A stretch of 63,218 nucleotides of DNA, the filler included, from Kipferlia bialata (taxonomy: Eukaryota): the NCBI GenBank assembly GCA_003568945.1. It is 5 parts of 5 records of this genome, joined end to end, with 100 filler letters (N's around TTAATTAATTAA, not from the genome) between each part and the next. Parts side by side here need not be neighbours in the genome. Positions count along the whole stretch, not along the records: positions 54,821 to 59,668 come from BDIP01000501.1; 4 more parts are not named here. One strand, written 5' to 3'. A model generated the notes under the pieces. The model did not search any database, was not told the DNA's origin, and saw nothing but the letters and a program-made list of their open reading frames with translations. Made by a program: the position numbers and the translations under genes. This document shows positions 804 to 62,066 of this stretch, piece by piece (the stretch's first letter is position 1; every line of letters begins with the position of its first letter).

Positions 804-3800
804 CTACTGTACTAGGTCCATAGGCAGAGAGGGCTTCCCACTGCAGTGGATGGTGCCATCAAACTGGGGTGAGTACACGGATAAGAACCTGGCAGATACA
901 TGGAGTACAATGAGAACAACATTGAAGTGGTAAGTCAATTGGACTAAGTATAATAGATCTATCTCTAAGTGTACCCTTGAGCTGTCTGACCCCTCTGACC
1001 CATGGGTATGATACAGAGTATAGAGTATAGCAAAGTATATATATATTATACATAGTATATAGACATATACATACCCTTGAGCTGTCTGACCCCTCTGACC
1101 GGTGGGGATAGGATATAGAGTATATAGTATAGCAAAGTATATAAAAACTATGTTATATATAGAATATTATATATAGTATATGCTATATGCGTACCCTTGA
1201 GCTGTCTGACCCCTCTGACCCATGGGGATAGGATATCCTGACACCATACATAGATACAGTATACATAGTATATATATACATATACATATATACATACCCT
1301 TGAGCTGTCTGACCCCTCTGACCCTGGTGGGTATGATATCCTGACACACCCCATAAACAGGGGGACCTGTGGTATGAGTAGAGAATGGTAAATATGAATA
1401 GATAAACTGTTATAGGTAATAATATACTAGTATAGTATATATATAGAAATACATGTTGTCACTTAAGGATATCCTGACACAGCCCATGAACAGCGGGACC
1501 TGATGCATAAGAATCAATGTATAGTTAGATTAGTGTGTATACAAAAATGGGTACTATATATGTACAACAAATGGAATATATCCTGACCCTGCCTGTGAAG
1601 AGGGGAACCTGGGGTATGATAATGAATAGTATCAACACAAAATACTTTGGAATGTATTAAATACCTGTTCCCTCAGCCAGTCCACGTGTCTGAGCAGTAT
1701 CTCTCTCTCTCTCTCTCTCATCAAAAGTATATATATACATACATATACTTGGACTACCTGATCTCTCAGCCAGTCCACGCGTCTCAGCAGTGTCTGCACA
1801 TTGACATCCCCCCTTCTCTCTCTCCCCCTATATATATGGATATTAATATATATATATATATCTATCTATATACCTGTTCCCTCAGCCACTCGACGTGTCT
1901 GAGCAGTCTCTGCACATTGGCGTCTCTCCTCTCCTCCCTCACTCTCTGTCTCTCTCTCTCCCTAGCAGCTTCTCTCTCTCTCTTATCCTTGTCGCCAAAG
2001 TGCACGGCAGTGCCATCGGCTGAGATGTACTCGATGCCTGAGGTCAGACACACATTTATAATAATAGTGATATAACAATACACACACATATACTACTACA
2101 TGTCTATATATTTATGACAGTGCACGGCAGTGCCATCAGCCGATATGTACTCAAAACCAAGAGTAAGACACGATTCTCCACATATCCCCTGTCTTTACAA
2201 CATATCATTTACAATACAACACTAACTGTATTGAATTATAGATGCTCATACCCTGGTCGATGTCCCCTGCTATGTCATCATGCACAGTGGCAGAGGTGTT
2301 GCCATGGCCGGCCTGGAGGGTGAGAGGTTACAAAGGAGTTACATGTGTATATATAGAAAGACAGACAGAGAGAGAGAGTGGTGTTGCCATGGCCGGCCTG
2401 GAGAGTGAGAGGAATATCCAATGATGAAGGCTCTTTCACATGAAGTGGGGCATGAATATATACCCACCTGGTACCCCGAGGGAGCCTCTATGTGCCATAT
2501 CTGCTCCATCCACGCAGCATACAGCACATCAAGTCTCTAAGGGTAAGCTAATGATAATAGAATAGTGTGACATGATACAATTTGTCGATCCACATATATA
2601 TACATCATACAGCACATCAAGTCTCTGAAGGTGAGAAACTCCTATGTGTAACATACTAACCAAGCAGCATAGAGGACGTCGAGTCTCTGTCTGAAAGCTA
2701 ATGGGCTAATGGTACTAATTTCACTCTACACGTACCGGCTTCCTCCTTGGCTTGGGCATGGTGCTAGGCAGTCTGAAGAGAGGGTTCCTGCCAGGCCTGG
2801 GTGAGTGACATGCAACCGAGTACAAACAACCAGAGACAATACACGCAATTAAAACAATTGGATAGTGTACTGTACCTAGGTGCTCTGTGCATCGGTGTGG
2901 GTTGTATGTAGTTGGGGTCCAGCTCCTTGAGTCTCTGCTTCTCTCTCGCACGCTCCTTCCTGGCCTGTCTCTCTCTCTCCTCTGCCTCCTGAAGTATTAG
3001 GGGTGAAGCAGATGATATAGATGGTATAGAATAGAGCATGCAATTTAGAAACACTAATGATCAATGACTGTGTTGTGTGTTCCTTCTCTCCCTGTGGATA
3101 ATGGTCCAAGCCTCCTATGACCCATTCTCTCTCTCTCTCTCTCAACGTATATCTTCTATCCAATAAGTATATATATACTCATTCATACCTCCTTCTCCCT
3201 CTCTGGGTCCCACCCCCCCATGACCCACTCGAAGAACTCGTCCATCAGCCTAGGGTCAGCAGAAGATTACACAAAAGGTATATATACACTTTACCCTAGC
3301 CCTACTATGGAAGTGTATTGAATATCTGACCATCTCAGGGTACACACATATGTCAAGGAACAAACTTCTCTGGGTACCTGCCGGACTATACTACAGGAGA
3401 GTAGTGATACTCCTACTAATATACATAAAAGTATAATATTACAATACAAATATTATGTAAGTATAATATATATACAATAATACAATATTTGTAATATATA
3501 AACACACCTGTACTGCACCACAGCTGGGACTGGCACACAGACACAAGAGTAATACCGTGTGTATATGCATATATATATGAATATACACTATATATACATA
3601 TATATATATGTATACTATGTATACCTGTACTGCACCACAGCTGGCACTGGCACATAGACACAACAGCAATACCGTGTGTATATGTATATATATATATATA
3701 TGTATACTATACATATATATATATATATATATGTATCCTATATACACCTGTACTGCACCACAGCTGGCACTGGCACATAGACTGAGGGTGGGTTGGAGTC

Positions 3801-6800
3801 AGGGCCCACACCTCCACTGTTGTCTCCCTCTCCCTGTCTCTCAATCACAGAGAATGCCCTCTCCAGTGGGAGCCACTGCTCCATGTAGAACCTGGTCTGG
3901 AGTTAGGGATNCCCTCTCCAGTGGGAGCCACTGCTCCATGTAGAACCTGGTCTGGAGTTAGGGATACACTACACATATGCATATACACATACAGAGAAAG
4001 TGTGTGCGTGTACCTCTGCATCTGAGTTGATGGCCTCCCTGGTTGGTCCTTCTGTCTCTCCACTCTGTCCATAGAACCTGTCTATCAGTATAAATATAGA
4101 TGGACACATATATAGATATATATTATATACATATCATATGGATACTGATACTGATTCTGATACTGATACCCATAGAACCTGTCTATATGTATATACCTAT
4201 CTATGTAGCTGCGCTCAGCTGCCTTGACATCGATGGTCATGCCCTGGGGTGAGGATACTTAAGCATAACTTAAGGATATGTAACTGAGAGACCAAGAAAG
4301 AGAGAGGTGCCAGGCAATCAAAACTCATGTACTGAAGATAGCAGATATAGTCTTGCTCATGCATGTCAATACCATATAATAGTATGGCTGTACCTCCAAT
4401 ATTGTACTTCCAAGTATTCTTGCTCACCTCCCCGAAGTTCCCTATCATAGCGTTCTTGATCATGTCTGTCCAGTTCATGGTCATGCCATCACGCCACACA
4501 TGCCTCTGGGCACTGGCCTGGTGGGGTAGAGGTACACTCTATACAGATGTATATATACCAATATGTATATACATAGAGAGAGAGAGAGAGAGAGAGATCA
4601 TGGCCATGCCACACATGGCGCTGGGCACTGGCCTGGGGGGTTAGAGTGTACATCATAATACTCACATTAATATATATGCATGTCTAAATATAGAATGCTA
4701 CTGTTATATTCAATACATCTAAAGAAAGGGCTTCACGCCACACATGCCTCTGGGCACTGGCCTGGGGGGTCAGCAGACGGCAAATGTACAGGCATGTATA
4801 TATATAAGGAGAGGTTATGTACTATATATATGGAGAGCTCATGGTCGTAATGCCACACATGCCACTAAGCACTGGCCTAGGGGCTAGGGAGGAGAATTGA
4901 ACACCGTACTATCGCAAACTGCCGATCTCTGTCCATTAACCTTTGGAAGCATTCATACCTGTCTGAAGTGGTCACTGACCATGGCGTAGATGCCCTGGGA
5001 GCCTGGGAGGGTCAGGTATTACGCGATAATGGGAAATACCATACGTTAACGCGAGATAGATATATGTATACTTTACCTGTTGTCTGGTAACAGAGGACGA
5101 AGAACAGTCTTGAGAGCAGGTCTGTGTTGAAGACCTTGAGTGACTCATATGCATTGAGGTAGAGTGTCTCTCTCTCTCCCTCTCTCTCCCCTTGAATGTG
5201 TGCGAGTGCCATCTCTCTCATGAGGGTGTAGGAGGCATCGGCCGCAGCTGAGATTAGATTCTATAATAGTGTATTACAACATATATATATAGGTTTTGTA
5301 ACTACTTTTCAATGAGTAGATACATGCTCTCTCATGAGGGAGTAGGAGGCATCGGCGGCAGCTGGGGTAAGCATTGCGAATATCACACATTTCTATAACA
5401 ATTACTGGACTATAGAGAGACAAATATATCGAGTATAGGAGGGTAGGAGGCGTCTGTGGTGGCTGGTGTAAACATAGGGTAAGAGACGCCATACAAAATT
5501 CATGTAAATAGAGATACACATATCCACACCTGGTATGTTTGTCATTGAATACATACAGTTCTAAATATATACTATATAAATACACACACATATATATATA
5601 TACACATACACCCATATCCACACCTGGTATGTTTGTCATTATAATAATATTATATTATATATATCTATATATATCGCCCTCACGCCTCTGCTCTGGGTGG
5701 AGTCACCTGGAGGGTTAGACTAATGAAGGATAATAAGAATAGATTCAGGATAATAATGGACAAATTGCCAGGGGTTGGAGGGAAGCATTTATATGCTCAA
5801 TTCACCACGATAACAACATATAAAGAAATGTATGCAGACATGTGTATGTGACTCTGGCTGGAGTCACCTGGGGTTAAGCTACTCAATAGAACAAAATATA
5901 CATATATCCACTCTGGAGGTAATGTATTAATAATGTAATAATCAAATACTTCATTCTCAGCAGTATTCCACTTGTCTCATACCTGTCCCGAAGCTAAATC
6001 CCTGATATATACGCTCCATTGTATCCCTGTCCCAATATGTATACTTATAATATACATATATACCTGTCCCAAAGCACGAGTTCAGGATGAGACTGAAGAG
6101 GGCAGCCCTGTCCAGCAGAGAGGGCACAATCTACGCGGTGAGTACACAACATACTACACGATGACGTAACACTGTGAAATGTGTCAATTCTACGCGACGT
6201 GTACCTTGAACACGCTGTACATCTCGTGTCTGGTGTATGGGCATCCAGTGAGAGAGGCAGATGGTAGGTCGGCTGGGGAGATGCCGCTCTCCCTCTCTCT
6301 CTCCTTCTCCCTCTCCCTCTCCATGTCTTGCTGGTGCAGTCTCCTGCCACCCTCCACAGAGTGCAACAGCCTGGGTGTAAAGATAGAGTAGCTAACAAAG
6401 CTTAATAATATGATGTGCATGTGATATAACAATATGTACATTGTGCCTTCTGCCACCTGTCCTGCCACCTGTGTATATAGTGTAAATATAGGAAAATACT
6501 TGTAAATACGCATCACTACCTTGACATGATTGAGTCTATGATCCCCCCCAGTCTTGTGTATGCCTCACATCCTGTGCCACACTCACTGGCACAGGCAGAC
6601 TGGACCTCCCTGGCAACCCTAGTGTTAAGGTATAGAGGGATAATAGGAGTATCTATTGCACAGGAGTTACCTTGGCAACCCTAGTGGTTAGAATGGAATG
6701 GAGTATACAACAATATAGCATTATCACTACTCTCATATTCAGAGGCACAGGCAGACTGGACCTCCCTGGCAACCCTAGTGTTAAGGTATATATACATATA

Positions 6801-8815
6801 CACGATATCTATATACATTTGTATATATATACACTGGTATACATGATATCTAGGGCACAGGCAGACTGGACCTCCCTGGCAACCCTGGTGGTAAGGTATA
6901 TACATATACACGATATAAATACACATATATAATTAGATGCACATATACACTGGTATAAATGATATCTAGGGTACATGCAGACTGGACCTCCCTGGCAACT
7001 CTGGGTGTAAGGCATATATATATATACGATTAACATATATATCAACAGTACATATGATCACTATAATCATATTAATGGCACAGGCAGACTGGACCTTGCA
7101 ACCCTAGGTGTATGATATATATGGCGAGGTATAGAGGAGAGATAAATACATACATATATACGATATATAAATATACGACTACCATCCTACCTGACCCCTG
7201 CACACAGCATAGTGGTGACACAAGTCAGTCTCTGCTGGCCATCGATGACCTGGGGGTAAGGGACTATAGGATAGGGTAAAGTTCTCAGTAAGAGTATTCA
7301 TGTATATGCGAGTATATATTTGGAATCAGATACACTCATACCTCCAGGGTGTTGATGCCCTCGTCTGATGTCCCGTCTGTCAGTCTCTCTCTCCCCCTGG
7401 CAGATTAGCACGATGGGAACATATTTATACATAGTATCATGACACTATTCTACGCCAATAGGGTCAATGTGAATCCGCTGACTTCAATTTTTACCTGTGC
7501 TATGCTCCCACATGGACGGATGTACAGTAGTATACATATATACAAATACATATGTATGTATATGTGACACTATCGAGAGCGTCTATATATAATACTAAGG
7601 TACCTGTACACGTGTATGCTTCCACATGGATGGGTGGTGCCCTGCCTGGTGCCTAGGATAAGAAGATGTGTATACATGGGTAAAGGTACAAAACATGAAG
7701 TACAAATTAGGGCTATCCACCTTGCTTGGCCACCTCTGACAGACGCTGCACGTCTCTAAAGTATATACATTAGATATATGAACAGAGTAAGTATATAGTA
7801 TAATACAATATAGTAGAGTACAGTATATATATATAAATATATATGTACCTTGCTTGGCCACCTCTGACAGATGCTGCACATCTCTTGAATAGATATATGA
7901 GATATACATACAGAGTCTACATAGAGTATATACAGTATGTATAGTATAGTAAATATTTACATATATACCTTGCTTGGCCACCTCTGACAGATGTTGCACA
8001 TCTCTAAAGAGTGTCTCCACATGTTTCTCAGTCCAGCAGAAGCGTCTGAAGGGGTGAGCAGCATCGTAGTATATACCGAAATGCAATATTTCACAATATT
8101 TGATATAATAAAATACGTTATGAGGAAGAGAGTCCAGCTGAAGCGTCTGGAGGGGTGATCATAAATGTGAGAGCTATACATATACGTTGAAGCGCCAAGA
8201 GGGATGGTATGTCATACTATATATATGACTACATATACAAGAGAGAGAGAGAGTGATATATACCTCTGGAACAGGGGAATGGTCACTGCCAGGGGTGCAG
8301 TGTCACAGGTGCCCTCAGGGAGTAGCTCGCCAAAGGTACACCTTGATTGTAAGCAGACAGATAGAGACAGACAGACATACAGACAGAGAGAGAGAGAGAA
8401 AAGGGGGGGGGAGGCATATATACAGGCATACAGACAGAGAGAGATGTGCTGTCAGGGAGTAGCTCGTCAAAGGCACACCTACGGAATAAGAGGTATATCG
8501 TTGGCATAAGAACAAAAATATTTATAACTGGGAGATAGAAACTATGTCAGTGATATGGAGTCGCTAATATGGGAAAGAATATGATAGGAGGGAGAGGGTG
8601 TGAATAATGGTGATAGACAAGGGGAGAGAATATAAAACTTTCAGGGGGGGTCCCATGAATATACAAAATGTATACTAACACACTATCTCCCTGTCTTTGT
8701 GATTGAGGAGAGGGGGGGGAATCACACCATACTCCTACCACCAATGCTATTATATATCCATACATATACCCTACCTCCCTGCCTCGACTGTGATGCGGTC
8801 AGGGTCATAGGGCAT
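804..8815 (-). CDS. DUF262 (GmrSD N-terminal, ParB/Srx-fold) domain protein, about 24 exons, no HNH/DUF1524 domain seen
   Basis: Hand-spliced GT-AG exons stay in frame from MPYDPDRITVEAGR (ATG 8815) to FDGTIHCSGKPSLPMDLVQ* (TAG 804-806). They carry the DUF262 motifs in order: IPLFQR-RFCWTEKHVETLFRDV (about 8280-8000), HPCGSIHVY (about 7620), LEVIDGQQRLT (about 7345-7225), IVPSLLDR, and GIYAMVS...RDGMTMNWTDMIKN (about 4990-4450). An upstream exon may exist, and one junction near 5550-5680 is less certain. Confidence 0.8.
973..1612 (-). repeat. Exon-edge echoes around the VPLFMGCVRISYPPGSEGSDSSR exon
   Basis: ACCCTTGAGCTGTCTGACCCCTCTGACC occurs at 973, 1073, 1193 and 1296. Acceptor-side copies lie at about 1468-1500 and 1579-1610. 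Confidence 0.9.
6588..7106 (-). repeat. Acceptor-edge echoes of the RVAREVQSAC exon
   Basis: GGCACAGGCAGACTGGACCTCCCTGGCAACCCT-like units occur at about 6588 (real exon), 6744, 6854, 6976 and 7077, with a short unit at 6670. Confidence 0.9.
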
Positions 8816-9131
8816 GGCTGGGGGTGAGACAGACAGAGAGAGAGAGAGAGAGAGGGAGAGAGGTGCGGTCAGGGTCATAGGGCATGGCTGGGGGTGAGGT
8901 ATAATGAATTGTAGTAAAGTATATGGGTATATGGGAATCTCTGTAGATAGGGAAACAGAAAGAGAGGGAGAGGTCAGGGTCATAGGGCATGGCTGGGGGT
9001 GAGGTATTGAATAGAATACAAAACACATTTACTATCAGCAGTAAGGGAATAATTGTATACAGGGAGAGAGACAGAGAGAGAGAGGTCAGGGTCATAGGGC
9101 ATGGCTGGCGGTGAGACAAAGGGAGAGAGAT

Positions 9132-33613: not shown

Positions 33614-34283
33614 ATGGGAGACGTACGTATAGTTCTATAGCTTTTATAGGTTCCTGGTGCCTCTAACCCCCTAGATTTTCAGCATGAATGGCTCTGCCAT
33701 TGTTGGCATGGCCGGCAAGGACAGTGTGGCCATTGCTACTGATCTCCGCTACGGCAACAGCTACCAGACGATAGGAACGAATATGAGGAAGGTTTTCAGG
33801 CTGTCAGACAACCTGATGGTGGCCCTGGGAGGCCTTGCCACTGACATCCAGACCCTGTCTGCCAAGCTGAGGTTCCGTGTCAACCTATACGAGCTGGAGG
33901 AGAAGCGCCCAATGTCCCCCAAGGTGGCCACTCGCATGCTGTCGCAGCTGCTGTACAAGCACCGGTTTGGCCCATTCTTTGTGTCCCCTATTGTGGCTGG
34001 ACTGTCCAAGGAGGGGGAGCCCTGGGTGGCCTCCATGGACTCCATCGGAGCTGTGTCGGATGTGGATGCTTACTACTCGGAGGGGACTGCTGCTGAGACC
34101 CTCATGGGTGCTTGTGAGACATACTGGAAGGAGGATATGACCCCAGAGCAGCTGGGTGGGACTGTGGAGAGGGTTATCCAGGCTGGTATGGGTAGGGATG
34201 CATTCAGTGGATGGGGTGCAGAGGTGTGGCTCCTCACATCCGAGGGACTGGAGGTGCGGGAGGTGAAGACAAGGCAGGATTAA
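33614..34283 (+). CDS. PSMB3: 20S proteasome subunit beta type-3
   Basis: Exon 1 encodes MGD (33614-33622), followed by an intron at 33623-33674. Exon 2 reads IFSMNGSAIVGMAGKDSVAIATDLRYG...GLATDIQT...LLYKHRFGPFFVSPIVAGL...GRDAFSGWG...KTRQD*, the PSMB3/PUP3 signature. Confidence 0.95.
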
Positions 34284-36707: not shown

Positions 36708-39700
36708 GTGTGCGGGTGCTGTCTTCCACAGGGTCAGTGATCAGATGAGGAGCACAGAGGTACGATGGATACTGTGTGTGATATATATATGGTATATTGT
36801 TATACAAGGCGCTGTATGTAATAAGGCTATATATATATATATATATATATAAGGTGACCAGATGAGGAGCACAGAGGTATGGCGCATACTGTATATGTTT
36901 TAATAGTAGTATTTATATAGTCGATATATAGCGCCTGATCTTCATCGAGAGATTGTATTCTTTTGGTCCATTGATGACTGTTCATATTCGTACATCACTC
37001 ATCTCTAATTGTCAGGGCCCCATGGACGATGACCTTACCCAGGACAGCTCCCTTATACTGTGGCACTTCTTGGGTATGTTCATATGTTAGAGTATATGTG
37101 TATATTCTATTATTATATATATACTATTAGTATTTCTATATACATGAATTAGCTCCATCATACTGTGACACTTCCTGGGTATGTGTGTGTTTGATACCAT
37201 ATATATACCATATATTCTTTATGTTACTGATAATCATTGTATATACTAACACTCAGGTCAGAGTGCCCGTGACGTGTGTGAGTCCTTGTATGAATGTATA
37301 ATGTAATGTATAATAGTGTATATGTATATATATATATGTGAATATATACACAGCCTTCTCACTCCCAGGCCAGAGTGCCCGTGACGTGTGTGTGTCCCTG
37401 TTGTCCAGGGGTGCAGACTCATTCATACCAGACAACGCAGGCCTCACACCTCGGTACGGGAGGGATTCATTTGCTTCGCATTTATGCTACATTACCTTCA
37501 ATTGATATATACAATTCAATGTTGGTACAGATACTGACTCCCAGTGACTATGTTGTCCTCTTCCTCAAGGGTCAGCGGCTTCTATCAGGACCAGACTTCG
37601 AAAACCAGGTATATATGCATGTATATATATCAAAGTATATATAGAGAGAGAGAAAGACAGAGAGAGGGGGGGGGGTATACGAGGATAGCGGTTCTTCTCC
37701 TCTTCTTACCCCCAGCCCATCCCCACTGCTGACAACGAGTACTCAACCGGACAAGAACAGTCAGGTAGTGAGTAGCATTACGTTCTAGTGATACCCCAAT
37801 AAGATGGTAGTTGTGTATTTGGAACATTCAGTTGAGTTTGTGTTTGTGTCAGTACCGGTGCCAATGTGTATACGGTATTTGTATACTGTGGGATATTTGT
37901 ACCTCAATATCACTCTATTAACGTTGTTGAACCTACTACTAGAGAGACGTACGCATTGTCTCCTTCCTCACCCCAGTCAACACTGAGGCCGTGCTAGTCA
38001 GACTGTACCCTCTGCTCCTGCAGCAGAAGGGGGCCAAGAAGACATTCAAGGCAGCCGTGACTCAGGTAGGCTTCTATAATAGTATATATTTGTATATATA
38101 TACAGAGAGAGAGAGATGACATTCAAGGCAGCTGGGACACATGTAATGCTGGATACATACATTACCCCAATATTCCAACACGTGTCTCACCCAGGCCTCC
38201 AAGTACCTCCCCCACCATGTCTCCACACAAATATTCATGCTCATTTACATATATGTACTATAATAGTATGTATAGTGTATCTATCTAAGTGAGACTNNNN
38301 NNNNNNNNNNNNNNNNNNNNNNNNNNNNNNNNNNNNNNNNNNNNNNNNNNNNNNNNNNNNNNNNNNNNNNNNNNNNNNNNNNNNNNNNNNNNNNNNNNNN
38401 NNNNNNNNNNNNNNNNNNNNNNNNNNNNNNNNNNNNNNNNNNNNNNNNNNNNNNNNNNNNNNNNNNNNNNNNNNNNNNNNNNNNNNNNNNNNNNNNNNNN
38501 NNNNNNNNNNNNNNNNNNNNNNNNNNNNNNNNNNNNNNNNNNNNNNNNNNNNNNNNNNNNNNNNNNNNNNNNNNNNNNNNNNNNNNNNNNNNNNNNNNNN
38601 NNNNNNNNNNNNNNNNNNNNNNNNNNNNNNNNNNNNNNNNNNNNNNNNNNNNNNNNNNNNNNNNNNNNNNNNNNNNNNNNNNNNNNNNNNNNNNNNNNNN
38701 NNNNNNNNNNNNNNNNNNNNNNNNNNNNNNNNNNNNNNNNNNNNNNNNNNNNNNNNNNNNNNNNNNNNNNNNNNNNNNNNNNNNNNNNNNNNNNNNNNNN
38801 NNNNNNNNNNNNNNNNNNNNNNNNNNNNNNNNNNNNNNNNNNNNNNNNNNNNNNNNNNNNNNNNNNNNNNNNNNNNNNNNNNNNNNNNNNNNNNNNNNNN
38901 NNNNNNNNNNNNNNNNNNNNNNNNNNNNNNNNNNNNNNNNNNNNNNNNNNNNNNNNNNNNNNNNNNNNNNNNNNNNNNNNNNNNNNNNNNNNNNNNNNNN
39001 NNNNNNNNNNNNNNNNNNNNNNNNNNNNNNNNNNNNNNNNNNNNNNNNNNNNNNNNNNNNNNNNNNNNNNNNNNNNNNNNNNNNNNNNNNNNNNNNNNNN
39101 NNNNNNNNNNNNNNNNNNNNNNNNNNNNNNNNNNNNNNNNNNNNNNNNNNNNNNNNNNNNNNNNNNNNNNNNNNNNNNNNNNNNNNNNNNNNTACCTGCT
39201 GCACCCAGCATATCGGGCATGGGGGCCGCATTCCCACAGGTACTAATGTATATATACATATATAGGTTCATACCAATATATATGTATATATATATATATG
39301 GTGTATGACCTACCTGCTGCATTTCTGCTTGATCTACCTGCTCTACCCAGCATATCGGGCATGGGGGCAGCATTCCCACAGGTATTAAGTATTGGACATT
39401 GATTATTAATTATTACACATAGTAGATTAGAGTTATGAACAGTAATAGAGTTACGATAGTTAGGTGTATGTGACTTGTTTGTTCCATCTTAGAATGAATC
39501 TTACAACAGGCCGGCCCAGATATCCGGTCCTGTCGGGAGCGCCTGATCCCCACCCCCGAGCCAGAGATGCTCAGCACACGCACACTCAGAGGTAGGGGTG
39601 TGTATGATTCGCAGACTGCTGACTATTCATCTTTCGTTACTCACTCAGTTTCCACGTTTGAAGTGTATTCTTCTATGTCATTGTAATCAATATATATATT

Positions 39701-42700
39701 TCTAAGACTCATAACCAGCTGCCCGTCCCATAGCCCCCCTATCCCCCGGTGCAGTGGCCACCATAGCCACATACAGAGTGCGGAGGCTGATGGCACTCCC
39801 TGATAGGTATATTGTGTATAGTATATATATATGTGTGTGTGTGTGTGTATATATGTGCCACCATAGCCACGTACAGGGTGCGGAGGCTGATGGCACTGCC
39901 AGACAGGTATAAATAGTATGTATATATATATAGTACACCCAGTATATATAGATATATGATGATTGTTGTGACTTATCGATCTTACCCTTTCAGGTTCTTC
40001 AAGCCGCCCCTGGTGTCTGACGACTCCGAGTCGGAGGGAGACAGCATATACAGTTCCTACGGCACTCCTTCTAGTCCATCCAGCACCTCTAGCACACCCA
40101 GGGGTGGGAGGGGTAGGAGAGGACCCAAGGGTAGAGCGGCCCTAGGCCTTTACGTGGACTCTGAGTTTGAAGGGGAGGGAGAGAGAGAGTTTGAGAGAGA
40201 GAGAGAGTCTGATGAGAGTGGTATTGATCGTCAGAAGAGGGACTCTGGAGTGAGGCTGCTGAGTGGAAAGGTAGGGGTTGTGTCCTCGTTTGGAACAGTG
40301 AACCTTTAACTACCATATCCTACGACATGGATACATCTCGAAATGTATAACAGCAGTGATGTAATGCTGGTATATGTATTATGACTAAGTATACTTGTCA
40401 CATACTTATGTGTAGGACAGACAGGCCAGACAGTCCAAGGACATCATGCGGAGGTTCACATCAAGGTATGTGTCTTGCCATAATCGTATTTCATCTCTTA
40501 GTGACTGCATTGTGTACCTTTCCATAATAGCATACCCACAAGCCATTCGTTAGGTCCCCAGCACACTCACTTCTATTGAATCATTGATAGTGTTAACCAC
40601 TACCCCCAGAATGATCTCTGCTGCGGGTACCCCTGTCCCTGAGAATGCCATTGCATCAGATAGTGAGCTGGAGGCTAGGGCATCCAGGTATATGGGACAT
40701 ATCATACACTATAGATTGATATGTATTTACATATATACGGGTATGTCATTGCATCGGACAGTGAGCTGGAGGCTAGGGCATCCAGGTATCATAGTGTCTG
40801 GAATTAGCCTCACTGTTGTTGATGACACTGAGGTCAACGCTGGGGTATTAGTGTGATGAGTGGTGATGTTTCCTATTCCCATTCCTGTAACTGTTCACTT
40901 ATACCCAGGGTCCGTCGTGCCGAGCTCTTTGCAGCCAAGGTCCGGAACCCAGGTAAAAGAGTACAAGGAGTTCCCATATGCACGTGTTTTTAAGAGTCTA
41001 CAGTGTTTACACTCCCTCACCCTCAGGCCTAGCCTTCTGGCCCCTGGCCCCCTCGTGCTCTCTCCCAGTGGCGGAAGGGTCTGATACACCATGCTTCAGA
41101 TACAGGGTGGGTGTATGTTAAATAGATATATACACATGTATATATATATATATATATTGTGTCTCTATATTCTCTGCCCGGGCTTCCTATACAGGGTGGG
41201 TGTACATTGTATTACCTGTCCAGTCGATATATCGGATACTGTATCACATACTCCTCTGACTGGTAGGTGCGTGGCTCCACCCTTGGTGAGCAGCTGTCCC
41301 ACCTCATGAGACCAGACGGAACAGCAACAGGTATATTTATATGTGTGTATACATGTATGTATCTGTATATATATAGTCCTGGTGGGTATAGTGTATATGG
41401 TGTCCCACCTGATGAGACCAGACGGAACAGCGACAGGTATATTTATATGGGTGTATACATGTATGTATTTGTATATATATAGTCCTGNCAGGTATATTTA
41501 TATGGGTGTATACATGTATGTATTTGTATATATATAGTCCTGGTGGGTATAGTGTATATGGTGTCCCACTTGATGAGACCAGACACAACAGTACCAGGAA
41601 TACACATATTACTTAACAACTGTATATGTCGGCAATATAGTACATAGAGTATTATGTATACTTGTCTGACCTCAGGATCCTTTGGTGTAGTTGGTGTTGG
41701 ATCAGCATTCTGTGGCAGAGACTTCAAGGATGGTGAGTGTCCATCATTTACCCTTGCTATATACCCTTGCTTCCGCCATTTACTTCACCAGTCAGAGAAT
41801 GAAGATATGTCACTCTACTTCGTTGCTCTCTCCAGGTCCTGAGGCTCTCTCTAGTTAGTGTGTAGGTTACAATTGTCATTATATATATCTTACCCCAGGC
41901 CCTGACGCTCTGTCCTGGGAGGACCTCCCCGATGATGGGTGGGCAGAGGCAGACATGGAGACGGAGAGAGAGAGAGAGAGGCAGCTGGAGGAGGAGGACG
42001 CCATGGAGAGCGAGCTCGAGCGGGAGATGGAGAGAGAGATGGAGAGGGAGATGTTAGGTGGTGATCTCGGGCTCGGTGGTGACGATATTGCCTCCAACCT
42101 AGCTGCTCTCGAGCACTTTGGGGCTGATATCACGGACTCTGAGCCAGAGACCCCAGAGGGTGCAGAGGGAGAGAGCGACACCAGCAGAGAGAGGGAGAGA
42201 GAGAGAGCTGCCTCCCATGAGAGGGAGAGAGAGAGAGAGAGTAGGGCAAGGGCGTCCAGTCTCGCCAGTGAGGGGGGCTACATGAGGGACCTGGCTGCTG
42301 AGACAGACAGTGTGTCCACTCTCACCATGGCACTCGGGAAGCTCTTAGGTACGCGTATATACATATACATGTGTGTATGTGTGTGTGGTTAATTGTTTGT
42401 GCATCTCCTGTATGTATGTTTCACTGTCTCTGATACCAGGCACCGCCTTCAATGTAGGTGGTCTCCGTGCTCCCTCCAACATACCCTCCGGCCACAGGCC
42501 CCCTGGGTCTCTATTCGACTCTCTGGCATACAGTCTGGCACCTATCAGGGGTGCCATTGGAGCCCTCTCCCCCTTTGTCCCCGTTCTCCCACCCCTGCCT
42601 TTCATAGAGGGCGACACTACCTCAGTCAACGAGGGGAGGGGAGGCAACGAAGGGAGTGAGAAGGAGGCGGATACATCTCCTGCGGACGAGGATGATGGGG

Positions 42701-43068
42701 AGAGTGTCTCAACCAGTACACACGGTGCCTTCTCCGTGTACGAACCCAGGAGTGCACTGCACTGGTCTGCGGGTGAGAGAGAGAGAGAGAGGCAGAGAGA
42801 GAGGGAGAGACAGAGGGACAGGGGCGTTGGAGACATTCCAGACCTTCCCGGAGAGAGGGAGAGGGAGAGAGAGAGGCTTGTCCTGGGTATGCGCATGTTT
42901 GGTGAGGCGGAGAGGCCCAGGGGCAGGGAGAGAGTGGATGTGACGGAGAGAGAGATCCTGAGCCGGCTAGGAGCCAGGCTCGAGGGCCACCTCATGTCTG
43001 CTGTACACAGTGATACAGGCGGTATGTTCAGAGGCGGTGACTCTTCCATGTACGAGTGGATCGAATAG
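36708..43068 (+). CDS. Large multi-exon hypothetical protein with an ankyrin-like repeat and E/R-rich tracts (5' partial, spans an N gap)
   Basis: The exon at about 37370-37452 encodes RDVCVSLLSRGADSFIPDNAGLTP, matching the ankyrin pattern LLxxGAD...D..G.TP. Many further AG/GT-bounded exons end at ...SSMYEWIE* (43068). Continuity across the 38297-39191 gap is assumed. Confidence 0.55.
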
Positions 43069-54651: not shown

Positions 54652-54982
54652 GGTATGTGTGCAAGATTGATAGAAAATGAATCCCCCCCCCCCCCCCCCC
54701 CCCCCCCACCCCCACCCCCANNNNNNNNNNNNNNNNNNNNNNNNNNNNNNNNNNNNNNNNNNNNTTAATTAATTAANNNNNNNNNNNNNNNNNNNNNNNN
54801 NNNNNNNNNNNNNNNNNNNNCCAAAAAACCTGGGGTGTAAGGAGGGGCCCCCCCCCCCCCCCCCTTCCTTTGTATCTGGAAGAGTCTTTCCCTCAGGACC
54901 CACTCCACATCCTCTCCCTCAGTCTCTCTCTGAATATTCACTCAGTTAATTTACACCCTGTATACATGTTCTGATCCCCCAG

Positions 54983-55278
54983 GACCCACTCCACCTCCAC
55001 ACACAGACGGGACAACACACGGGGGACATCATCAGGTAGTCATACTATATATATATATATTCATTGTATGTCAGACTCTATGTGGCATGTGTAGTATTAT
55101 GTGTACATAGTGTATACCCAGACGGGACAACACACGGGGGACAGTATCAGGTATACACATTGAATATATTGTCTATCAGACTATAGTGGTACATAGTCAG
55201 TCTGGGTCTAGATTCTCTCTCAATGTATATATTGAGCGAGTTAACATTAGGCCTAGGTCGCACCTTCCAGATGAGTGC

Positions 55279-55317
<39 letters not shown>

Positions 55318-55627
55318 CTTTCTCTCGATTCATGTATATATATTTTAACATATAGGTCTTGGTCGCACCTTCCAGATGAGTGCCTGTGGCTCCTGAGGTT
55401 AGGAAGGGAGGGGTGTATACATCATAAGGAGTCATATAGGAGGTGTACCTTCTCTAGAGAGAGAGAAAGAGAGAGAGAGGCCCCACTGTGAAGATGATTG
55501 CTTCGTGATATTACATCCTTCCCTACTCTTCTCCTGTAAGAGGGAAGATAGAGAGAGAGAGCGTATCTGTGAGTGGTTGATGGTACATGGCCTAAACCCC
55601 TATTGTAGGGGAGCCTGTGCTGGACAC

Positions 55628-55658
<31 letters not shown>

Positions 55659-55726
55659 ATAGAGAGTTAATGAGTGTAATGAATAGAGTTCTGAAGCAAT
55701 GTAGGGGAGCCTGTGCTGGACACTAA
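54983..55726 (+). CDS. 3' fragment of an unknown gene with echo-rich introns
   Basis: The exons DPLHLHTQTGQHTGDII|RSWSHLPDECLWLL|RGACAGH each have partial duplicate copies. The reading frame is not certain. Confidence 0.35.
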
Positions 55727-56145
55727 AGGACAGTGTGTGTGTGTGTGTGTGTGAAAGAGAGAGACAATATAGAGAGAAGACATAGTTTGACACAGAATAG
55801 TATTGTTGGGAATACTGAGAGAGGGGAACCTGTGCTGCACACTCAGAGGGAGAGAGAAAGAGAGAGAGAGGGACAAGAACAGAGAGAATAGAGATGAGAC
55901 AGAAGAGTACTGTTTGGAATACAGAGTGTTTCAAGTATTACCGATATCAAGTTTCCCATTATCAAAGGTCATACTACTACCGGCATAGCATTGACATCCA
56001 GGCAGTGCTATCAGCTAATGGGTCCACCTATATACGACATTCATCATTTGTATGAACTCTAAGTTCTTTGTCATGACTTCTCTCTCTATTCACACAAAAG
56101 GGCACAGTAAATAATGAATGATGTTATATATATCAGTTGTCAGTC

Positions 56146-56190
<45 letters not shown>

Positions 56191-56191
<1 letters not shown>

Positions 56192-58710
56192 TAGTCCAGG
56201 ATATCCGTCACAGCAGCACTGAGGGTGCGCTGAAGTCCTGGAATAAGGGTCTAGCAGAGTAAGAAGGTCTCGCCAATACTATAATCTATATATATGCACA
56301 CTATATACCTGGCATTGATGTGAGTCTGGACACACTCCCAGGGTCAAGGAACTCAGCAACGCCTATGGGTGAATATAGGATGTGGAAGGGGAGAGGGATG
56401 CGGACAGAGGGGCAAATATCTAGAAGAGTAAAATAGTCCATATGCACACATATATTTACACTATGCACACTATATACCTAGTAACAACAGCACATCGTGT
56501 GTCATGGATGATATGGATGGACTCCACCCCCCACACACAGGGGCAGTCACTCTATATACATATTCATACTATATATATAATACACACATATATATGTACA
56601 GAATACATATATCTACCTAGTAACAGCAACACGTCATGAGTGAGTGAGGATATACTGGGACTCCACCCCCCACACACAGGGGCAGTCACATCTAGGACCT
56701 TCACCTGGGCCTGGGAATTAGTGGAGTAGCTATAGTAATAATATCATAATTATGGGTGTAGTGGAGGTATTAAGGGTTGAGTGAGTATATGTAGTACCTT
56801 GACTCCTAGTATTGGCTTCTTGAGCGAGTATCCGTACTGCTGCAGCATGTCTGTGTCCTTGGTGCAGGAGGGGGGGACAACATCGCCTATATATTAGAAT
56901 ATACCAAAGTGTAAAGTGTATACAGTATGTGTCCATAGTATATATGTTGGAGCATGTCTGTGNNNNNNNNNNNNNNNNNNNNNNNNNNNNNAGTATATAT
57001 GTTGGAGCATGTCTGTGTCCTTGGTGCAGGAGGGGGGGACAACATCGCCTTATGTTAGTATATATCAAAGTGTATAGTGTATACAGTATGTGTATCCATA
57101 GTATATATGTTGGAGCATGTCTGTGTCCTTGGTGCATGAGGGGGGCACTACATCGCCTGGTATTAGTATATATGCATAATATATACATGCATAATATATA
57201 CATGTATATGGTATACTATGTGTATGTGTATATGATTGAGGGTAAGTTAGTGTCCTTGGTGCAGGAGGGGGGCACAACATCACCTGGGTGTTAGTATACA
57301 TAGTATATAGAGTACATATACATGTATATATGTCGTATATATATGCAGCATGTCTGTGTCCTTGGTGCAGGAGGGGGGGACTACATCACCTGATGTATAA
57401 GTATATATGTATATATATACATGTATATATATGTGTATGGTATACTTAGTATATGTGTACATGATTGAGGGTATGTCTGTGTCATGGGTGGAACTACATA
57501 TGTGTATATACCTTCGTAGTTACTGCTACACCGCATGTTGCTACTGACTGTCTGCCTCTTGTCCATGTCTAGTATAGATATATCATATATAAATACTAAT
57601 GCCCATATATATAATTATATATACACATATGTGTACACTCATACCTTCATAATTGCTACTGCATCTCATGTTTGATGACACTGTCTGCCTCTTGTCCATG
57701 TCGAGTATGGGCAGATGAAGAATATATATATTGATATATAATAATACATACTGTATAGTATATACCTTCATAGTTACTGCTACAGCGCATGTTACTAGAC
57801 ACTGTCTGTCTCTTGTCCATGTCGAGTATATAGTCATGAGTATACAATCAGAATAGTACCTTCATAATTGCTACTGCATCTCATGTTGCTAGACACTGTC
57901 TGTCTCTTGTCCATGTCGAGTATGGGCAGGTGGGACCGGGTCAGATAGGGGTTGATACTACTGTTAGTAATAAATACATATAACTGTATATAATATATGA
58001 TATGCAGTAAATACAATATATAATAGTCCAGTATGGGCAGGTGGGACCGGGTCAGGTAGGGGTTGATACTACTGTTAGTAATGCATATATATATAATTGT
58101 AGATAATTCATAGTACGCAATATAGTATGTATAATCAATGTAGTATATACAGTATATATAGTATATTGTATAAATAATATATAGGGGTGATGCTGGAGTG
58201 AGCAACATTAAAAAATATATACATTTATACAAATGTATATAATAGAGAATATGCAAAATATAGTATGTATAATCAATGTAGTATATAGTATATAGTATGT
58301 ATAGTATATAGTGTGTAAAATCAATGTAGTAGTCTAGTATGGGCAGGTGGGATCGGGTCAGGTAGGGGGTGATGATACAGGTAAGACACGGAGATAATGT
58401 GAAGGATACACACGCAAAGTGAATATATATATATATACTTCACATATATAGAGAGAGAGGACTAACAATTACCTGAACACACTGTCCCCAGACAAGGTGC
58501 CCTTCCTAGTTACTAGGGACCTCTCCTGCACAAGAGTGGCACTGACTGACATTAGGGGGGTAGAGAGAGAGGAAGAGAGAGAGGGCTCTCCTGCACAAGA
58601 GGAATATGCATATATACTAACCTAGTTTCTCATCACTCTCCGTGTGTCTCCTTGTCTGCATCAGTGCACCTCTCTTCTGTAGCAAAGACATGGCTGGTAT
58701 TAGGGGTGTA

Positions 58711-58741
<31 letters not shown>

Positions 58742-59278
58742 TATACGGGAAAGAGACATGTCTGGGTGTTAAGGGTGTAGAGAGAGGGAGATAGTAACTG
58801 AGACTGCATTGTTGTCATAATCATATACATTGGTAGAGATATATAGATAGTCTATGGTACAAGGAAAGTATATATAGTTATGGACATGCAATACACACAT
58901 GCATACCTGACTCTAGCAATGGGTCGTTGGGGTCAGGTGTCTCCTTGTCATCTGGCACAGAGGCGCCCTTGGCAAAGGCTACGATAAGGGTATGAGAATA
59001 CGAAGATAGTACGTAGAATAGCATATACAGGTCCAAAAATGAAATGAAAAAACCTTCACAATAGTCCACTAGCAATGCCCCACTGCTGAGTAGTTCATAG
59101 ACCCAGGCATTGATGTCGTTGGCCAGGTACAGACCGCTGATGCCTGGGGTGAGTATATATATACTTACGTACACTTGTATATATGTATCTACATGACCAC
59201 ACATACCGGCTAATGGGTGTCTGGGCGATGCCCTCAAGAAGAGACTGTCCAGAAGGGAGGACTTGATATGCCTTGGGT

Positions 59279-59311
<33 letters not shown>

Positions 59312-59392
59312 GGAGGAGATACCACACAGAATTAACACTCACCGCATGTCCACCGACTCAAAGAGCTCTGCCCCCACTCTGCTGTGCCTGAC
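56191..59392 (-). CDS. Hypothetical multi-exon protein (5' partial) with heavily echo-filled introns
   Basis: In-frame exons: VRHSRVGAELFESVDM, GISGLYLANDINAWVYELLSSG, SINPYLTRSHLPILDMDKRQTVSSNMRCSSNYE, GDVVPPSCTKDTDMLQQYGYSLKKP, DVTAPVCGGWSPSISSLTHDVLLLL and GLQRTLSAAVTDILD*. Confidence 0.65.
56845..58365 (-). repeat. Stacked partial exon/splice-site duplications ('echoes')
   Basis: Five or more copies of the DVVPPSCTKDT acceptor edge, four copies of the ILDMDKRQTVSSNMRCSSNYEG donor edge and three copies of the PYLTRSHLPILD edge, separated by TA-rich spacers. Confidence 0.9.
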
Positions 59393-59824
59393 CTGGGGTG
59401 AATAAAGGGTGTAGGAGGATGGAATAAGGGTGTAGGAGGATGGATTATGGGTGTAGGAGGGTGAACAAAGGATGTAGCATGAATACAATATACTATATTG
59501 GGATGATGCATTTCTCTCTTTGTAGTAGGTAGTCTTCTTTACGGAGCGGGGTTATCTATAGAGTGATTGAATAGAATAAATGGTGAAATTGAAAACAATG
59601 TGGGGATATTCACACAAGAAGAACGTACCTTCCACCCCCTTCTGACCGTGGAGTCTCTATGTTTAAAGNNNNNNNNNNNNNNNNNNNNNNNNNNNNNNNN
59701 NNNNNNNNNNNNTTAATTAATTAANNNNNNNNNNNNNNNNNNNNNNNNNNNNNNNNNNNNNNNNNNNNGTTGGGGGGGGGGGGGGGGGGGGGGGGAGAGA
59801 TGAAAGAATCCAGTGGTAAGTCAC

Positions 59825-60311
59825 CTGGCGTGCTCTGATGCGCTCCCTCTCGGCTGCTTCCCGGGCCTTCCTGAGGGTAAGAGTGAGTGAGTGTTCATAT
59901 ATACACTGAGATGGTACATGCCAGCTTATGTCCTGCGATACTCTAGTCTGTATAGGCAGACGAGTCCTGTACCTCTCGTCGTCCTCAGCCTTCTTCTGCT
60001 TCTTGGCGGCCACGGCCTGCCTCTGCTCGTCTAGGGAGGCCCGTCTGGCAGCATTGACCCCGTGCTGGGTCAGATACCTGGCAGTGAGGCCACAGAGAGC
60101 ATACACATATATCGATAGGATGTATTAAGCCAAGGGTGGGGTAGGGGGGGGGGCGAGAGCGGGAGAGATGGGGGAGAGAGAGAGAGAAAGACTCCCATCC
60201 GAGTCACCTTGCAATGTAGTCAATGGCATCCTCAGGCCGCCTCTCCACAACCTCTGCAATAGCACGAGACAGGACGGGTCCGACCGTCTCCTTCAGGTAC
60301 TCTGCGTTCAT
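59825..60311 (-). CDS. Dpy-30 motif protein (DYDC/radial-spoke-like) with coiled coil; truncated at contig end
   Basis: MNAEYLKETVGPVLSRAIAEVVERRPEDAIDYIARYL matches the Dpy-30 motif YL...V...L..GL.EV...RP.DPI.YLA.YL. Confidence 0.8.
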
Positions 60312-60544
60312 CTGTCAGAAGACGGTGCCGAGTGGTGTGGTGTATGGGGGACACTGGCTACTGAGAAGGCACTCAGAATATTCAATACAGAAACACCCGT
60401 AATATAATGCCACGCACACATTGCATATGACAGTTTCATTATTTTATGGACCATATGAAAAATAGTGAGAGGGGTTAGCCATACTCAACAGCTACCCTTC
60501 ATCCACACACCCGTCTCCAAGCAGTCCCCTCTCCAGATACACAA

Positions 60545-62066
60545 ATGGACTCAGTGTTTGGATTCCAGGGCGAAGGCTACGTGTGCCTTGCCGGGGATGC
60601 CCGTGCCATCAACTCTATCTTTGTGCTGAAGCAGCACCATGACAAGATTGTGCAGGTGTGTGTATGTGTGATATGTGGTATGGAGGTCTGGGTGGCTCGT
60701 TCTCCTGATGTATAGTGAGTAATGTAGAGTGTTCTACCTGTATAGAGGTGGGTCCTATATATGTGTTGCTTTTACGACTGTTTGGCGTATTCCGTGCTTA
60801 CCTTACTTCGAGTGGGATCATCATACTCTATGTATAGATTGATATGTGACAGCGTAGTGCGAGGGATAGGTGTTCGTCTGAGATAACCCACTGATGATGA
60901 CTGTTAGAGATGGTTGTGAAGTCGTTGTTGGGGTGCCAGTGTGTACAGTGAGGCGTATTGCCTTTGTTCTCCACACTCACTAAGTATGAGCATTATAGGT
61001 TCCTACTATTCCCATACAGTGCTCCTATACCACCTCACCCCCCCCCTCCCCCCCAACCCCCCACCCCAGGTGTCTGACCGTATGCTGCTGGCCATGGTGG
61101 GAGAGGCCGGAGACACAGAGCAGCTGAGCGAGTTCGTCAAGGTATGAGTGGTATATTAAAGCCACACGCAAGTATGAATGTATGTATTTTTTTATATACC
61201 TAAACATATACATGTAATTGTGTGTATACTATCTTAGGTGTATATATAAAGTACCCCTGACCCCAGGTCAACCTGCGCCTCCTCGAGCTGCGTCTGGGCC
61301 ACCTGTCCACACACATGGCCGCCAACTGGCTAAGGACAAAGATGGCAGAGAGCCTCAGGAAGAGCCCATACCAGGTGGGGTGTTGTGTGGATATGTATAT
61401 ATATAGTCATATTCAGTATACAATGGGGATATATATGTATTGACCCCCCCCCCAGTCAGTCAGTCGTTCCCTCTCTACACATGCCCCTCTCCCAACCCCT
61501 CAGGTGAACTGCCTTCTGGCCGGCATGGATGCCGAGACCCCCGCTCTGTACCACCTAGACTTCTACGGCACTCTGGCCAAGCTGTCCTTCGGTGCACACG
61601 GGTACTGCGGCCACTTCCTACTGTCCCTGTTTGACAAGCACTGGCACGAGGGCATGACGAAGGAGGAGGCGCTGCCTCTGGTGGAGCTGCTGGGGGGGGA
61701 GCTGAAGGGCAGGTTCCTGCTGCACCAGGTAGGGACAGGGTGTGTGATGTATATACACTGTTTGATACTGCTTGGCACTGACCCCAGGACACCTTCATTG
61801 TCAAGATCATCTCCACAGAGGGAGTCGAGACCCACGAGGTCAACATCAAGGGCCACCAGGTATAGAGACATGCCATATTATAGGGGATTGTGTACATGGC
61901 AGGTTCATAGAGGGGGTTGTGGTTAAGTAGTCTCCCTGTCTCTCTCTCTCCTCTCTCACCCTAGGACGTTGGGCGCCCCCCTGTGGCTGAGGAGCCAGTG
62001 GCTGAGGCTGAGGCAGAGACAGAGATGTCAGCCCAGAGGCCAGCCCTGACCATTCAGGCCGAGTAG
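60545..62066 (+). CDS. PSMB2: 20S proteasome subunit beta type-2 (beta4/PRE1), 6 exons
   Basis: Spliced sequence MDSVFGFQGEGYVCLAGD...SIFVLKQHHDKI...VGEAGDTEQLSEFVKVNLRL...AANWLR..MAESLRKSPYQVNCLLAG...LYHLDFYGTL...AHGYCGHFLLSLFDKHW...ELKGRF. Confidence 0.95.

What the first reader, a model, noticed from the sequence alone, without database searches (positions are those of the whole stretch)
56477..56700. Mosaic echo: identical on the exon-interior half, heavily recoded next to the donor
Seen: the copy at about 56477-56550 matches the real exon exactly for 10 codons (VTAPVCGGWS). It then differs in 10 of the next 14 codons: 9 changes are synonymous (including AGT->TCC) and one is L->M. Inference: such a sharp step in identity is what a recombination or conversion tract between diverged alleles would leave, not uniform decay after duplication.
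Basis: partly seen in the sequence, partly recalled or inferred. Interest (0 to 1): 0.7.

Follow-up and report, generated by a model that had tools for sequence, protein, structure and literature searches.

The report
Introns hoarding other alleles' exon ends
In a free-living relative of Giardia, an intron holds a likely spliced-out copy of the preceding exon's end whose changes are almost all silent and include the single amino acid that marks a second, diverged copy of the gene; it is likely a scar of recombination between very different alleles, which would be a trace of sex in a group where sex has not been observed.

Summary
Observation exact: on the minus strand the last 73 nt of exon 56710-56617 recur at 56550-56478, with 10 identical codons, then 10 of 14 differing (9 silent, Leu>Met). 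The gene maps to Kipferlia bialata KIPB_002836. A second copy (B, KIPB_008906, another contig) differs at 1 of 252 residues, and that residue is the echo's Met. A spliced B-type contig fits the echo better than the live exon. Echoes are common: 44 at 25 of 90 exon ends in four echo-rich gene models. 77 of 107 differing codons are silent (35 of 37 in this gene), against 36-44% if only the live exon were protected, so the echoes come from once-coding, diverged versions. Three codon states and a four-gamete conflict point to at least three donor versions and recombination. The step is real alone (p 0.003-0.011) but borderline after correction (0.06). B probably shares most of the identical block, the live exon is the odd one out near the donor, and the gradient is absent in the other genes. 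Best reading: tandem duplication across a splice site, then exchange with diverged alleles. Alleles versus paralogues is unsettled. No description was found in the searches run.

The parts
56617..56710 (-). Live exon (94 nt, AQVK...LLLL+G) of copy A of an orphan gene (P0001, KIPB_002836)
   Evidence: Spliced mapping of P0001; acceptor confirmed by the joint 56709-56797 in X2 contigs; its donor rests on the annotation only
56660..56689 (-). Codons 1-10 of the duplicated part, identical in live exon and echo; codons 1-9 inferred identical in copy B too
   Evidence: contig ends at 56663 and start equivalent to 56692 (inference)
56618..56659 (-). Donor-side 14 codons of the live exon; at least 4 of codons 14-22 differ from both echo and B
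56551..56616 (-). Live donor and first 66 nt of the intron (TA-rich spacer ending at the duplication junction)
56478..56550 (-). The echo: 73-nt copy of the exon's 3' end; 32 nt identical, then 13 differences in 41 nt; carries the Met of copy B
56363..56477 (-). Echo's own GT donor and the rest of the intron; its first 16 nt equal those of the next intron
   Evidence: longest shared start of 2080 donor-flank pairs
56309..56362 (-). Next exon; the B-type contig differs at 3 of 54 nt here
56194..56237 (-). Last coding exon
   Evidence: joint 56236-56308
56798..56886 (-). Previous exon; B differs at 8 of 89 nt, the 5 listed ones all third-position silent; B also present in DNA at equal depth (427 vs 419)
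57000..57389 (-). Four acceptor-side echoes of exon 56886-56798 (starts 57389, 57283, 57156, 57048), skipped by A transcripts
   Evidence: joint 56885-57859
57512..57829 (-). Three donor-side echoes of exon 57957-57860 (ends 57766, 57645, 57512); with the live copy, four versions encoding the same 21 residues, 0 non-synonymous codons in all 6 pairs, four-gamete conflict
   Evidence: B contig laid on 57511-57575 with 4 differences
57860..57957 (-). Live exon whose first donor is used in RNA
58026..58068 (-). Nearer of two acceptor-side echoes of exon 57957-57860 (the other starts at 58374); a B-type RNA contig is laid on it

Best explanation
The echo is a copy of the exon's last 73 bases plus donor lying in the intron, likely ignored by splicing, and it likely came from a once-coding, diverged allele of the gene that recombination placed behind the live exon, the identity step likely marking the edge of an exchanged tract. 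Proposed steps. (1) A short tandem duplication (units about 115 nt) spans an exon-intron boundary. The duplications are shown; the cause is inferred, perhaps break repair by polymerase theta in a lineage lacking Ku. (2) It is tolerated because the first donor and last acceptor are used; this is shown in RNA for intron 57859-56887 and inferred for the focal intron. (3) Alleles have near-identical proteins, about 8% different exons and unalignable introns, so exon sequence is the only homology; an allele's live exon can pair with the echo or with the live exon and cross over or convert inside an identical patch (inferred). (4) The result is two adjacent exon ends that agree on the junction side and differ silently on the donor side, each followed by its own intron start. 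Repeated events build arrays of allelic exon ends. The echo does nothing for the protein; it is a record of past exchange. Odds by step: once-coding diverged source about 0.9; tract edge between codons 10 and 14 about 0.6; population alleles rather than paralogues alone about 0.6.
For: Echo has the Met that is the only difference between P0001 and P0002 in 252 residues. B-type spliced contig is laid on the echo with 8 differences, while echo and live exon differ by 13. B also fits echoes better than live sites at 57511-57575, at 58070 and, in DNA, at the acceptor flank 57295. 77 of 107 differing codons are silent in 44 echoes (98 of 149 untrimmed), 35 of 37 in this gene and 42 of 70 in the others, against 36-44% under one-sided selection; the live exon would have to change about 64 times faster than the echo here. 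Echo-to-echo pairs at 57766/57645/57512 have 0 non-synonymous among 8, 7 and 10 differing codons; three codon states occur at three positions, while only two versions are seen in DNA and RNA; site 21 conflicts with sites 43-57. Several echoes are identical in the exon part but unrelated in the intron flank, and flank similarity falls as splice-side divergence rises (rho -0.29, p 0.056). K. bialata is listed with Spo11, Dmc1, Msh2 and PolQ and without Ku70 (PMC8516963 supplement rows).
Against: B probably shares codons 1-9, and runs of 10 identical codons between two copies this diverged are common (58-93% per 100 codons), so the breakpoint cannot be placed in the echo. The step is p 0.06 after correction, and no gradient exists outside this gene. 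B's full DNA was not obtained; 4 of its 8 differences from the echo are unlisted. Most genes are single-copy in the assembly (BUSCO 69 single, 6 duplicated; P0003 alone in its cluster), so A and B are not simply two homologues of a heterozygous diploid. The four-gamete conflict rests on one transition on one side. Window sequence downstream of the echo is not significantly closer to B than upstream (3/54 vs 8/89, p 0.53). About 1 amino-acid change against roughly 0.3 silent changes per silent site in an orphan protein is unexplained.
Confidence: 0.52

Rival explanations
1. Ectopic gene conversion between resident paralogues (A, B and possibly lost copies) refreshes the echoes; no exchange between individuals is needed.
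For: The silent excess and the gradient are strongest in the one gene with a known second copy (35/37; 7/63 vs 30/63). B is in the same DNA sample at equal depth. The assembly is mostly single-copy.
Against: Two donors give at most two states per site, but three occur at three codons, and the echo's codons 11-12 match neither A nor B. A silent excess also holds in models with no second copy found (42/70, p 0.001-0.003; untrimmed 0.001-0.013).
Confidence: 0.18
2. The echo came whole from one other functional version in a single misregistered exchange at the intron/exon junction; the step only reflects a block that happens to be invariant among all versions (chance, junction ascertainment or a splicing enhancer).
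For: B inferred identical to A over 56692-56663; such runs are common; Bonferroni p 0.06 and no gradient in other genes.
Against: Changes private to the live exon cluster in codons 14-22 (at least 4 of 9, against 0 of the 14 before; p 0.014). The first 10 codons have ample synonymous opportunity.
Confidence: 0.17
3. The echo is still used, as an in-frame 72-nt extra exon or an alternative exon end, and is kept by purifying selection.
For: Silent-biased change; an AG directly before the echo would give a 72-nt phase-1 exon; 39 of 44 echoes keep their GT or AG.
Against: That acceptor is GAG, seen in 0 of 44 modelled introns; the TAG two bases upstream gives a frameshift. A transcripts skip all seven echoes of intron 57859-56887. 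Neither annotated protein has the repeat.
Confidence: 0.07
4. Assembly artefact: pieces of different haplotypes or paralogues joined in tandem through TA repeats.
For: Short-read assembly; contigs seem cut at the repeat 56568-56598; the contig over the focal left junction is not listed.
Against: Echo junctions lie inside single DNA contigs with 0 differences at about 400 depth (57441-57671, 57685-57824, 57107-57371, 56199-56525). The echo starts mid-exon after intron sequence and differs from B.
Confidence: 0.04
5. Plain tandem duplication followed by decay, with only the live exon protected by selection.
For: Some echoes do look like this: near-identical flanks (41401, 3659) and decayed inner copies with stops (7107, 4876); nearer echoes share more flank (p 0.02).
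Against: Predicts 36-44% silent; observed 9/10 here, 35/37 in the gene and 77/107 overall. It does not explain the Met shared with B.
Confidence: 0.02

Closest known systems
Human F7 intron 7 37-bp VNTR with 5' pseudo-sites (PMC1557585; abstract and outline read)
   Same: Tandem units spanning an exon-intron boundary give extra donor copies downstream that stay silent while the most upstream donor is used.
   Different: There the pseudo-sites are described as identical in sequence, at one locus. Here units are about 115 nt, occur at donors and acceptors at 25 of 90 ends modelled, and differ almost only silently, with unrelated intron flanks.
Intron gain by tandem genomic duplication (Rogers model, recalled; PMC3265369, PMC4974935, PMC3443670 seen as search listings only)
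   Same: Short internal duplication neutralised by splicing.
   Different: That model creates a new intron from an AG|GT in duplicated exon sequence. Here an existing splice site is duplicated and an existing intron grows.
Unequal crossing-over and gene conversion between diverged alleles or paralogues (general knowledge, recalled)
   Same: Mosaic tracts, silent-biased differences, incompatible sites.
   Different: The products are parked as dead half-exons in introns, so one apparently single-copy genome holds several versions of the same exon end.
Break-repair tandem duplications (polymerase theta or Pol alpha-primase; PMC7368036, PMC5730883, PMC8355091 seen as search listings only)
   Same: Plausible source of the first duplication; PolQ is listed and Ku70 absent in K. 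bialata.
   Different: These make identical copies and cannot by themselves give silent divergence.

Membership tests
Splice-junction-spanning tandem repeat with silent pseudo-sites (F7 IVS7 type) | Unit spans exon end plus splice site, head to tail | tested here: met
   39 of 44 echoes keep GT or AG
Splice-junction-spanning tandem repeat with silent pseudo-sites (F7 IVS7 type) | Pseudo-sites are skipped in mRNA | tested here: inconclusive
   Met for the seven echoes of intron 57859-56887; for the focal echo no A-type contig covers the junction
Splice-junction-spanning tandem repeat with silent pseudo-sites (F7 IVS7 type) | Units near-identical or neutrally decayed | tested here: not met
   35 of 37 differing codons silent in this gene; flank scores mostly within the range of unrelated pairs
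Recombination or conversion tract between diverged functional copies | A diverged functional donor version exists and shares derived states with the tract | tested here: met
   Met of P0002; B contig laid on the echo
Recombination or conversion tract between diverged functional copies | Significant clustering of differences | tested here: inconclusive
   p 0.0025-0.011 alone, 0.06 corrected over 10 echoes
Recombination or conversion tract between diverged functional copies | Switch of phylogenetic affinity across the breakpoint, or incompatible sites | tested here: inconclusive
   Not testable at the focal echo without B's DNA and an outgroup; four-gamete conflict at the 57860 exon end rests on one site
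Allelic (sexual or parasexual) exchange | Donor versions are alleles segregating in the population | not testable with these tools
   One sample only; indirect support from three states per codon
Intron gain by tandem duplication | New intron bounded by a duplicated exonic AG|GT | tested here: not met
   The duplicated site is an existing donor; B has an intron at the same place (joint 56361-56477)
Cassette or mutually exclusive exon | Own canonical acceptor and in-frame length | tested here: not met
   In frame only with a GAG acceptor, 0 of 44 introns
Retro-copied (cDNA) insertion | Exon joined to next exon without intron | tested here: not met
   Echo is followed by GT and intron sequence

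The most novel reading that the evidence does not exclude
Kipferlia introns are a genome-wide archive of alleles. Because only exons are homologous between hyper-diverged partners, misregistered exchanges during cryptic sex stack exon ends from different individuals inside introns. One genome would then record the population's silent diversity (about 0.3 per silent site) and its recombination, and intron growth in this lineage would be a by-product of sex.
Probability: 0.38. Interest if true: 0.86.

Novelty: new variant of a known kind. Interest (0 to 1): 0.64.

Why it matters
[quoted passage not shown] If the echoes are exon ends of other alleles, a single existing assembly gives a direct test for recombination, population diversity and its timing in a free-living fornicate, and a mechanism for intron lengthening in the only intron-rich fornicate known to the genome paper. 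It also shows a spliceosome that ignores near-perfect donor and acceptor copies about 115 nt away. Practically, such echoes mislead read mapping: B transcripts were laid on echoes rather than on live exons.

Tried and rejected
No whole genome is held for this window, so copy B's DNA could not be read. No RNA holder was listed as such; X2 is a guessed RNA run, though its contigs skip GT-AG introns. No X2 contig was laid on 56617-56662 or on A-type downstream exons; the tool says such a hole proves nothing, so it is not used. Function of the host protein: 0 Pfam families for P0001 and P0002; the 50%-cluster search returned only P0001 and P0004, a repetitive sequence matching one 32-residue stretch that I judge unrelated; the protein atlas gave no answer. 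Genome-wide second copies: 0 of 10 single-ORF look-ups were in the collection and one more missed; the search with the 42445-42642 exon found nothing, not even itself; P0003 is alone in its cluster. A two-haplotype assembly was rejected from BUSCO 69 single, 6 duplicated. Age order of echoes: no correlation of rank with divergence (rho 0.05) or with non-synonymous change (rho 0.01). Frequent echo-exon swapping on one chromosome was rejected by argument, since it would homogenise the copies. A cDNA origin was rejected because the echo keeps its intron start. The copy at 3951 was dropped as a gap-made duplicate (1 of 45).

Full report
Setting. The window is several contigs joined by N-linkers. 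The focal stretch lies in 54821-59668 and holds an intron-rich minus-strand gene. A search with the focal exon returned one protein, P0001, named K. bialata KIPB_002836. It maps exactly on nine exons between 59144 and 56194 with GT-AG introns. A second gene of the window maps to KIPB_002770. P0001 has no Pfam family and no convincing relative outside the species.

Observation. It is confirmed codon by codon: 10 identical codons, then 10 of 14 differing, 9 silent and one Leu>Met, 13 nt in all, each copy ending at a phase-1 GT donor 139 nt apart. A breakpoint scan gives p = 0.0025, or 0.006-0.011 after dropping 2-3 junction codons. It is the best of 10 testable echoes, 0.06 after Bonferroni.

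A second copy exists. The 90% cluster of P0001 holds P0002 (KIPB_008906, a 5,206-nt contig). Over 252 residues they differ once, Leu versus Met, at the very codon where the echo has Met. By my reading of the sequence, no GT-AG path yields P0002 from this window's DNA. Laying runs X1 (DNA?) and X2 (RNA?) on 55950-58270 (contigs only; 44 and 6 laid, 52 pieces not shown) shows two spliced versions. A has 0 differences and skips 56887-57859 and 56711-56797. B has 8 differences in the 89-nt exon; the 5 listed are all silent third positions. B is also in DNA at depth 427 against 419. Listed and visible B differences total 18 in 220 exon nt (8/89, 2/47, 3/54, and 5/30 read by eye from the loose ends).

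What B says about the step. B's downstream contig was laid on the echo (8 differences) and spliced from the echo-equivalent donor. It reads like the live exon at codons 11-12 and like the echo at codon 14. Met forces identity with the echo at codon 16. Four differences are unlisted because they lie near the piece ends. The A and B upstream contigs both stop at 56663, and B's next contig starts 3 nt before the echo start, a 30-nt overlap. With 31-letter words (recalled for these contigs) this implies that A and B share 56692-56663. So codons 1-9 are invariant in all three versions, codons 11-12 are private to the echo, and at least 4 of codons 14-22 are private to the live exon against 0 of the preceding 14 (p 0.014). 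The echo is a B-related third version, and the tract may sit in the live exon rather than in the echo. If an A continuation exists in the RNA graph, B must also differ at codon 10, making the echo A-like there; this is conditional. B likewise fits echoes better than live sites at 57511-57575 (4 differences; that echo differs from the live exon by 12), at 58070 and at the acceptor flank 57295, where B's intron appears short and free of echoes.

The wider pattern. I modelled four echo-rich stretches: two from the annotated proteins, and two by hand with a single open frame. They were chosen for being echo-rich, and the rest of the window was not modelled. A nucleotide-only scan found 45 echoes at 26 of 90 exon ends, with 1 of 4,142 non-cognate pairs passing the threshold; one gap-made copy was dropped. 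Unit length has median 115 nt. After trimming the junction end to a 6-nt match, 77 of 107 differing codons are silent (98 of 149 untrimmed); by codon position the differences are 25/16/87. An earlier scan note on a sea urchin (e1-9861148) explained a milder excess by selection on the live exon only, so I simulated that null. It gives 36-44% silent. Observed values are 9/10 for this echo (p 0.001-0.003), 35/37 for this gene (0 of 1,500 simulations) and 42/70 for the other models (p 0.001-0.003; 0.001-0.013 untrimmed; 0.003-0.03 for untrimmed nearest-only). Four copies of the exon end at 57860 encode the same 21 residues with no non-synonymous codon in any of 6 pairs, three states at three codons, and one site in conflict with five linked sites. 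The echoes were therefore under coding constraint during most of their divergence, and more than two donor versions are needed, while only two are seen in this sample.

Differences lean toward the splice site in this gene (7/63 vs 30/63; 8 of 9 echoes, but only 4 exon ends) and not in the others (31/105 vs 26/105; 8 of 22). Ascertainment at the junction favours the lean. Some echoes look like ordinary young or decayed duplications.

Mechanism. A duplication with one end in the exon and one in the intron leaves the protein intact if the first donor or last acceptor is used, as A transcripts show for seven echoes and as described for the human F7 VNTR (PMC1557585, abstract). Between versions whose introns cannot be aligned, exon sequence is the only homology, and the echo is an extra target. 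A crossover or conversion starting in an identical patch gives copies that agree on the junction side and differ on the donor side with a foreign intron start. The weak link between foreign flank and splice-side divergence fits this (rho -0.29, p 0.056). K. bialata is listed with Spo11, Dmc1, Msh2 and PolQ and no Ku70 (PMC8516963 supplement 6 rows; NHEJ passage). The assembly is mostly single-copy (PMC5874029 S1 figure text: 69 single, 6 duplicated), so A and B are a local duplicate or a locally retained second allele. The excess in genes with no second copy found and the three-state codons favour population alleles, but lost or unannotated paralogues are not excluded.

Rivals. Paralogue-only conversion 0.18; whole-piece import with a chance step 0.17; functional use 0.07 (in frame only through a GAG acceptor, 0 of 44 introns); assembly artefact 0.04 (other echo junctions lie inside single contigs, but the focal left junction's contig is not listed); plain decay 0.02.

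Literature. Searches listed no description of such echoes in Kipferlia or of allele-derived echoes; most subscription journals are not covered. The genome paper's main text has 0 hits for 'duplicat', 'heterozyg' and 'ploid'. Seen: PMC5874029 passages, section 12 and supplement 1 (supplements 2-3 unread); PMC8516963 passages, part 1 of 4 of supplement 5, part 1 of 8 and searched rows of supplement 6; PMC6679479 passages; PMC1557585 abstract and outline; all others as listings only.

Verdict. The single step is moderate evidence; the strong result is that the echo, and many like it, derive from other functional versions of the exon. New variant of a known kind; interest 0.64.

Noticed in passing
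window 56477-56462 and 56308-56293 (-): The echo's intron start and the next intron's start share 16 nt, the longest of 2,080 donor-flank pairs; this suggests local copying between neighbouring donors or a duplicated origin of that intron.
   Followed up: partly
window 56194-59144 (-): Copies A and B differ at 1 of 252 residues but about 8% of exon bases, an extreme constraint for an orphan protein with no Pfam family; unexplained.
   Followed up: partly
window 56515-56517 and 57512-57900 (-): Serine switches between TCN and AGY codons in 3 of 57 serine codons compared, all in this gene, suggesting deep divergence or multi-base mutation.
   Followed up: no
window 807-9130 (-): GmrSD N-terminal (PF03235) domain gene KIPB_002770 with 22 mapped exons and 25 echoes; the annotation skips possible exon pieces at about 5870-5530, where further weak echoes lie.
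   Followed up: partly
window 36708-43068 (+): Long multi-exon gene with open reading frames across hand-built models and 9 echoes; no database protein was found with its 42445-42642 exon.
   Followed up: partly
window-wide: Echo unit lengths are tightly grouped (42 of 44 between 77 and 162 nt, median 115), hinting at a fixed physical scale such as nick spacing or lagging-strand fragments (interpretation speculative).
   Followed up: no
window 33614-34283 (+) and about 60570-61860 (+ strand reading): Proteasome subunit genes: PF00227 confirmed for the first; the second recognised by eye from its reading frame only.
   Followed up: no
window about 59800-60318 (-): Exons encoding a short helical motif resembling Dpy-30 (recalled, not tested), upstream of the focal gene across a gap; may or may not be the same gene.
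   Followed up: no
window 54880-55900 (+): Further echo pairs in an unmodelled plus-strand gene facing the focal gene.
   Followed up: no
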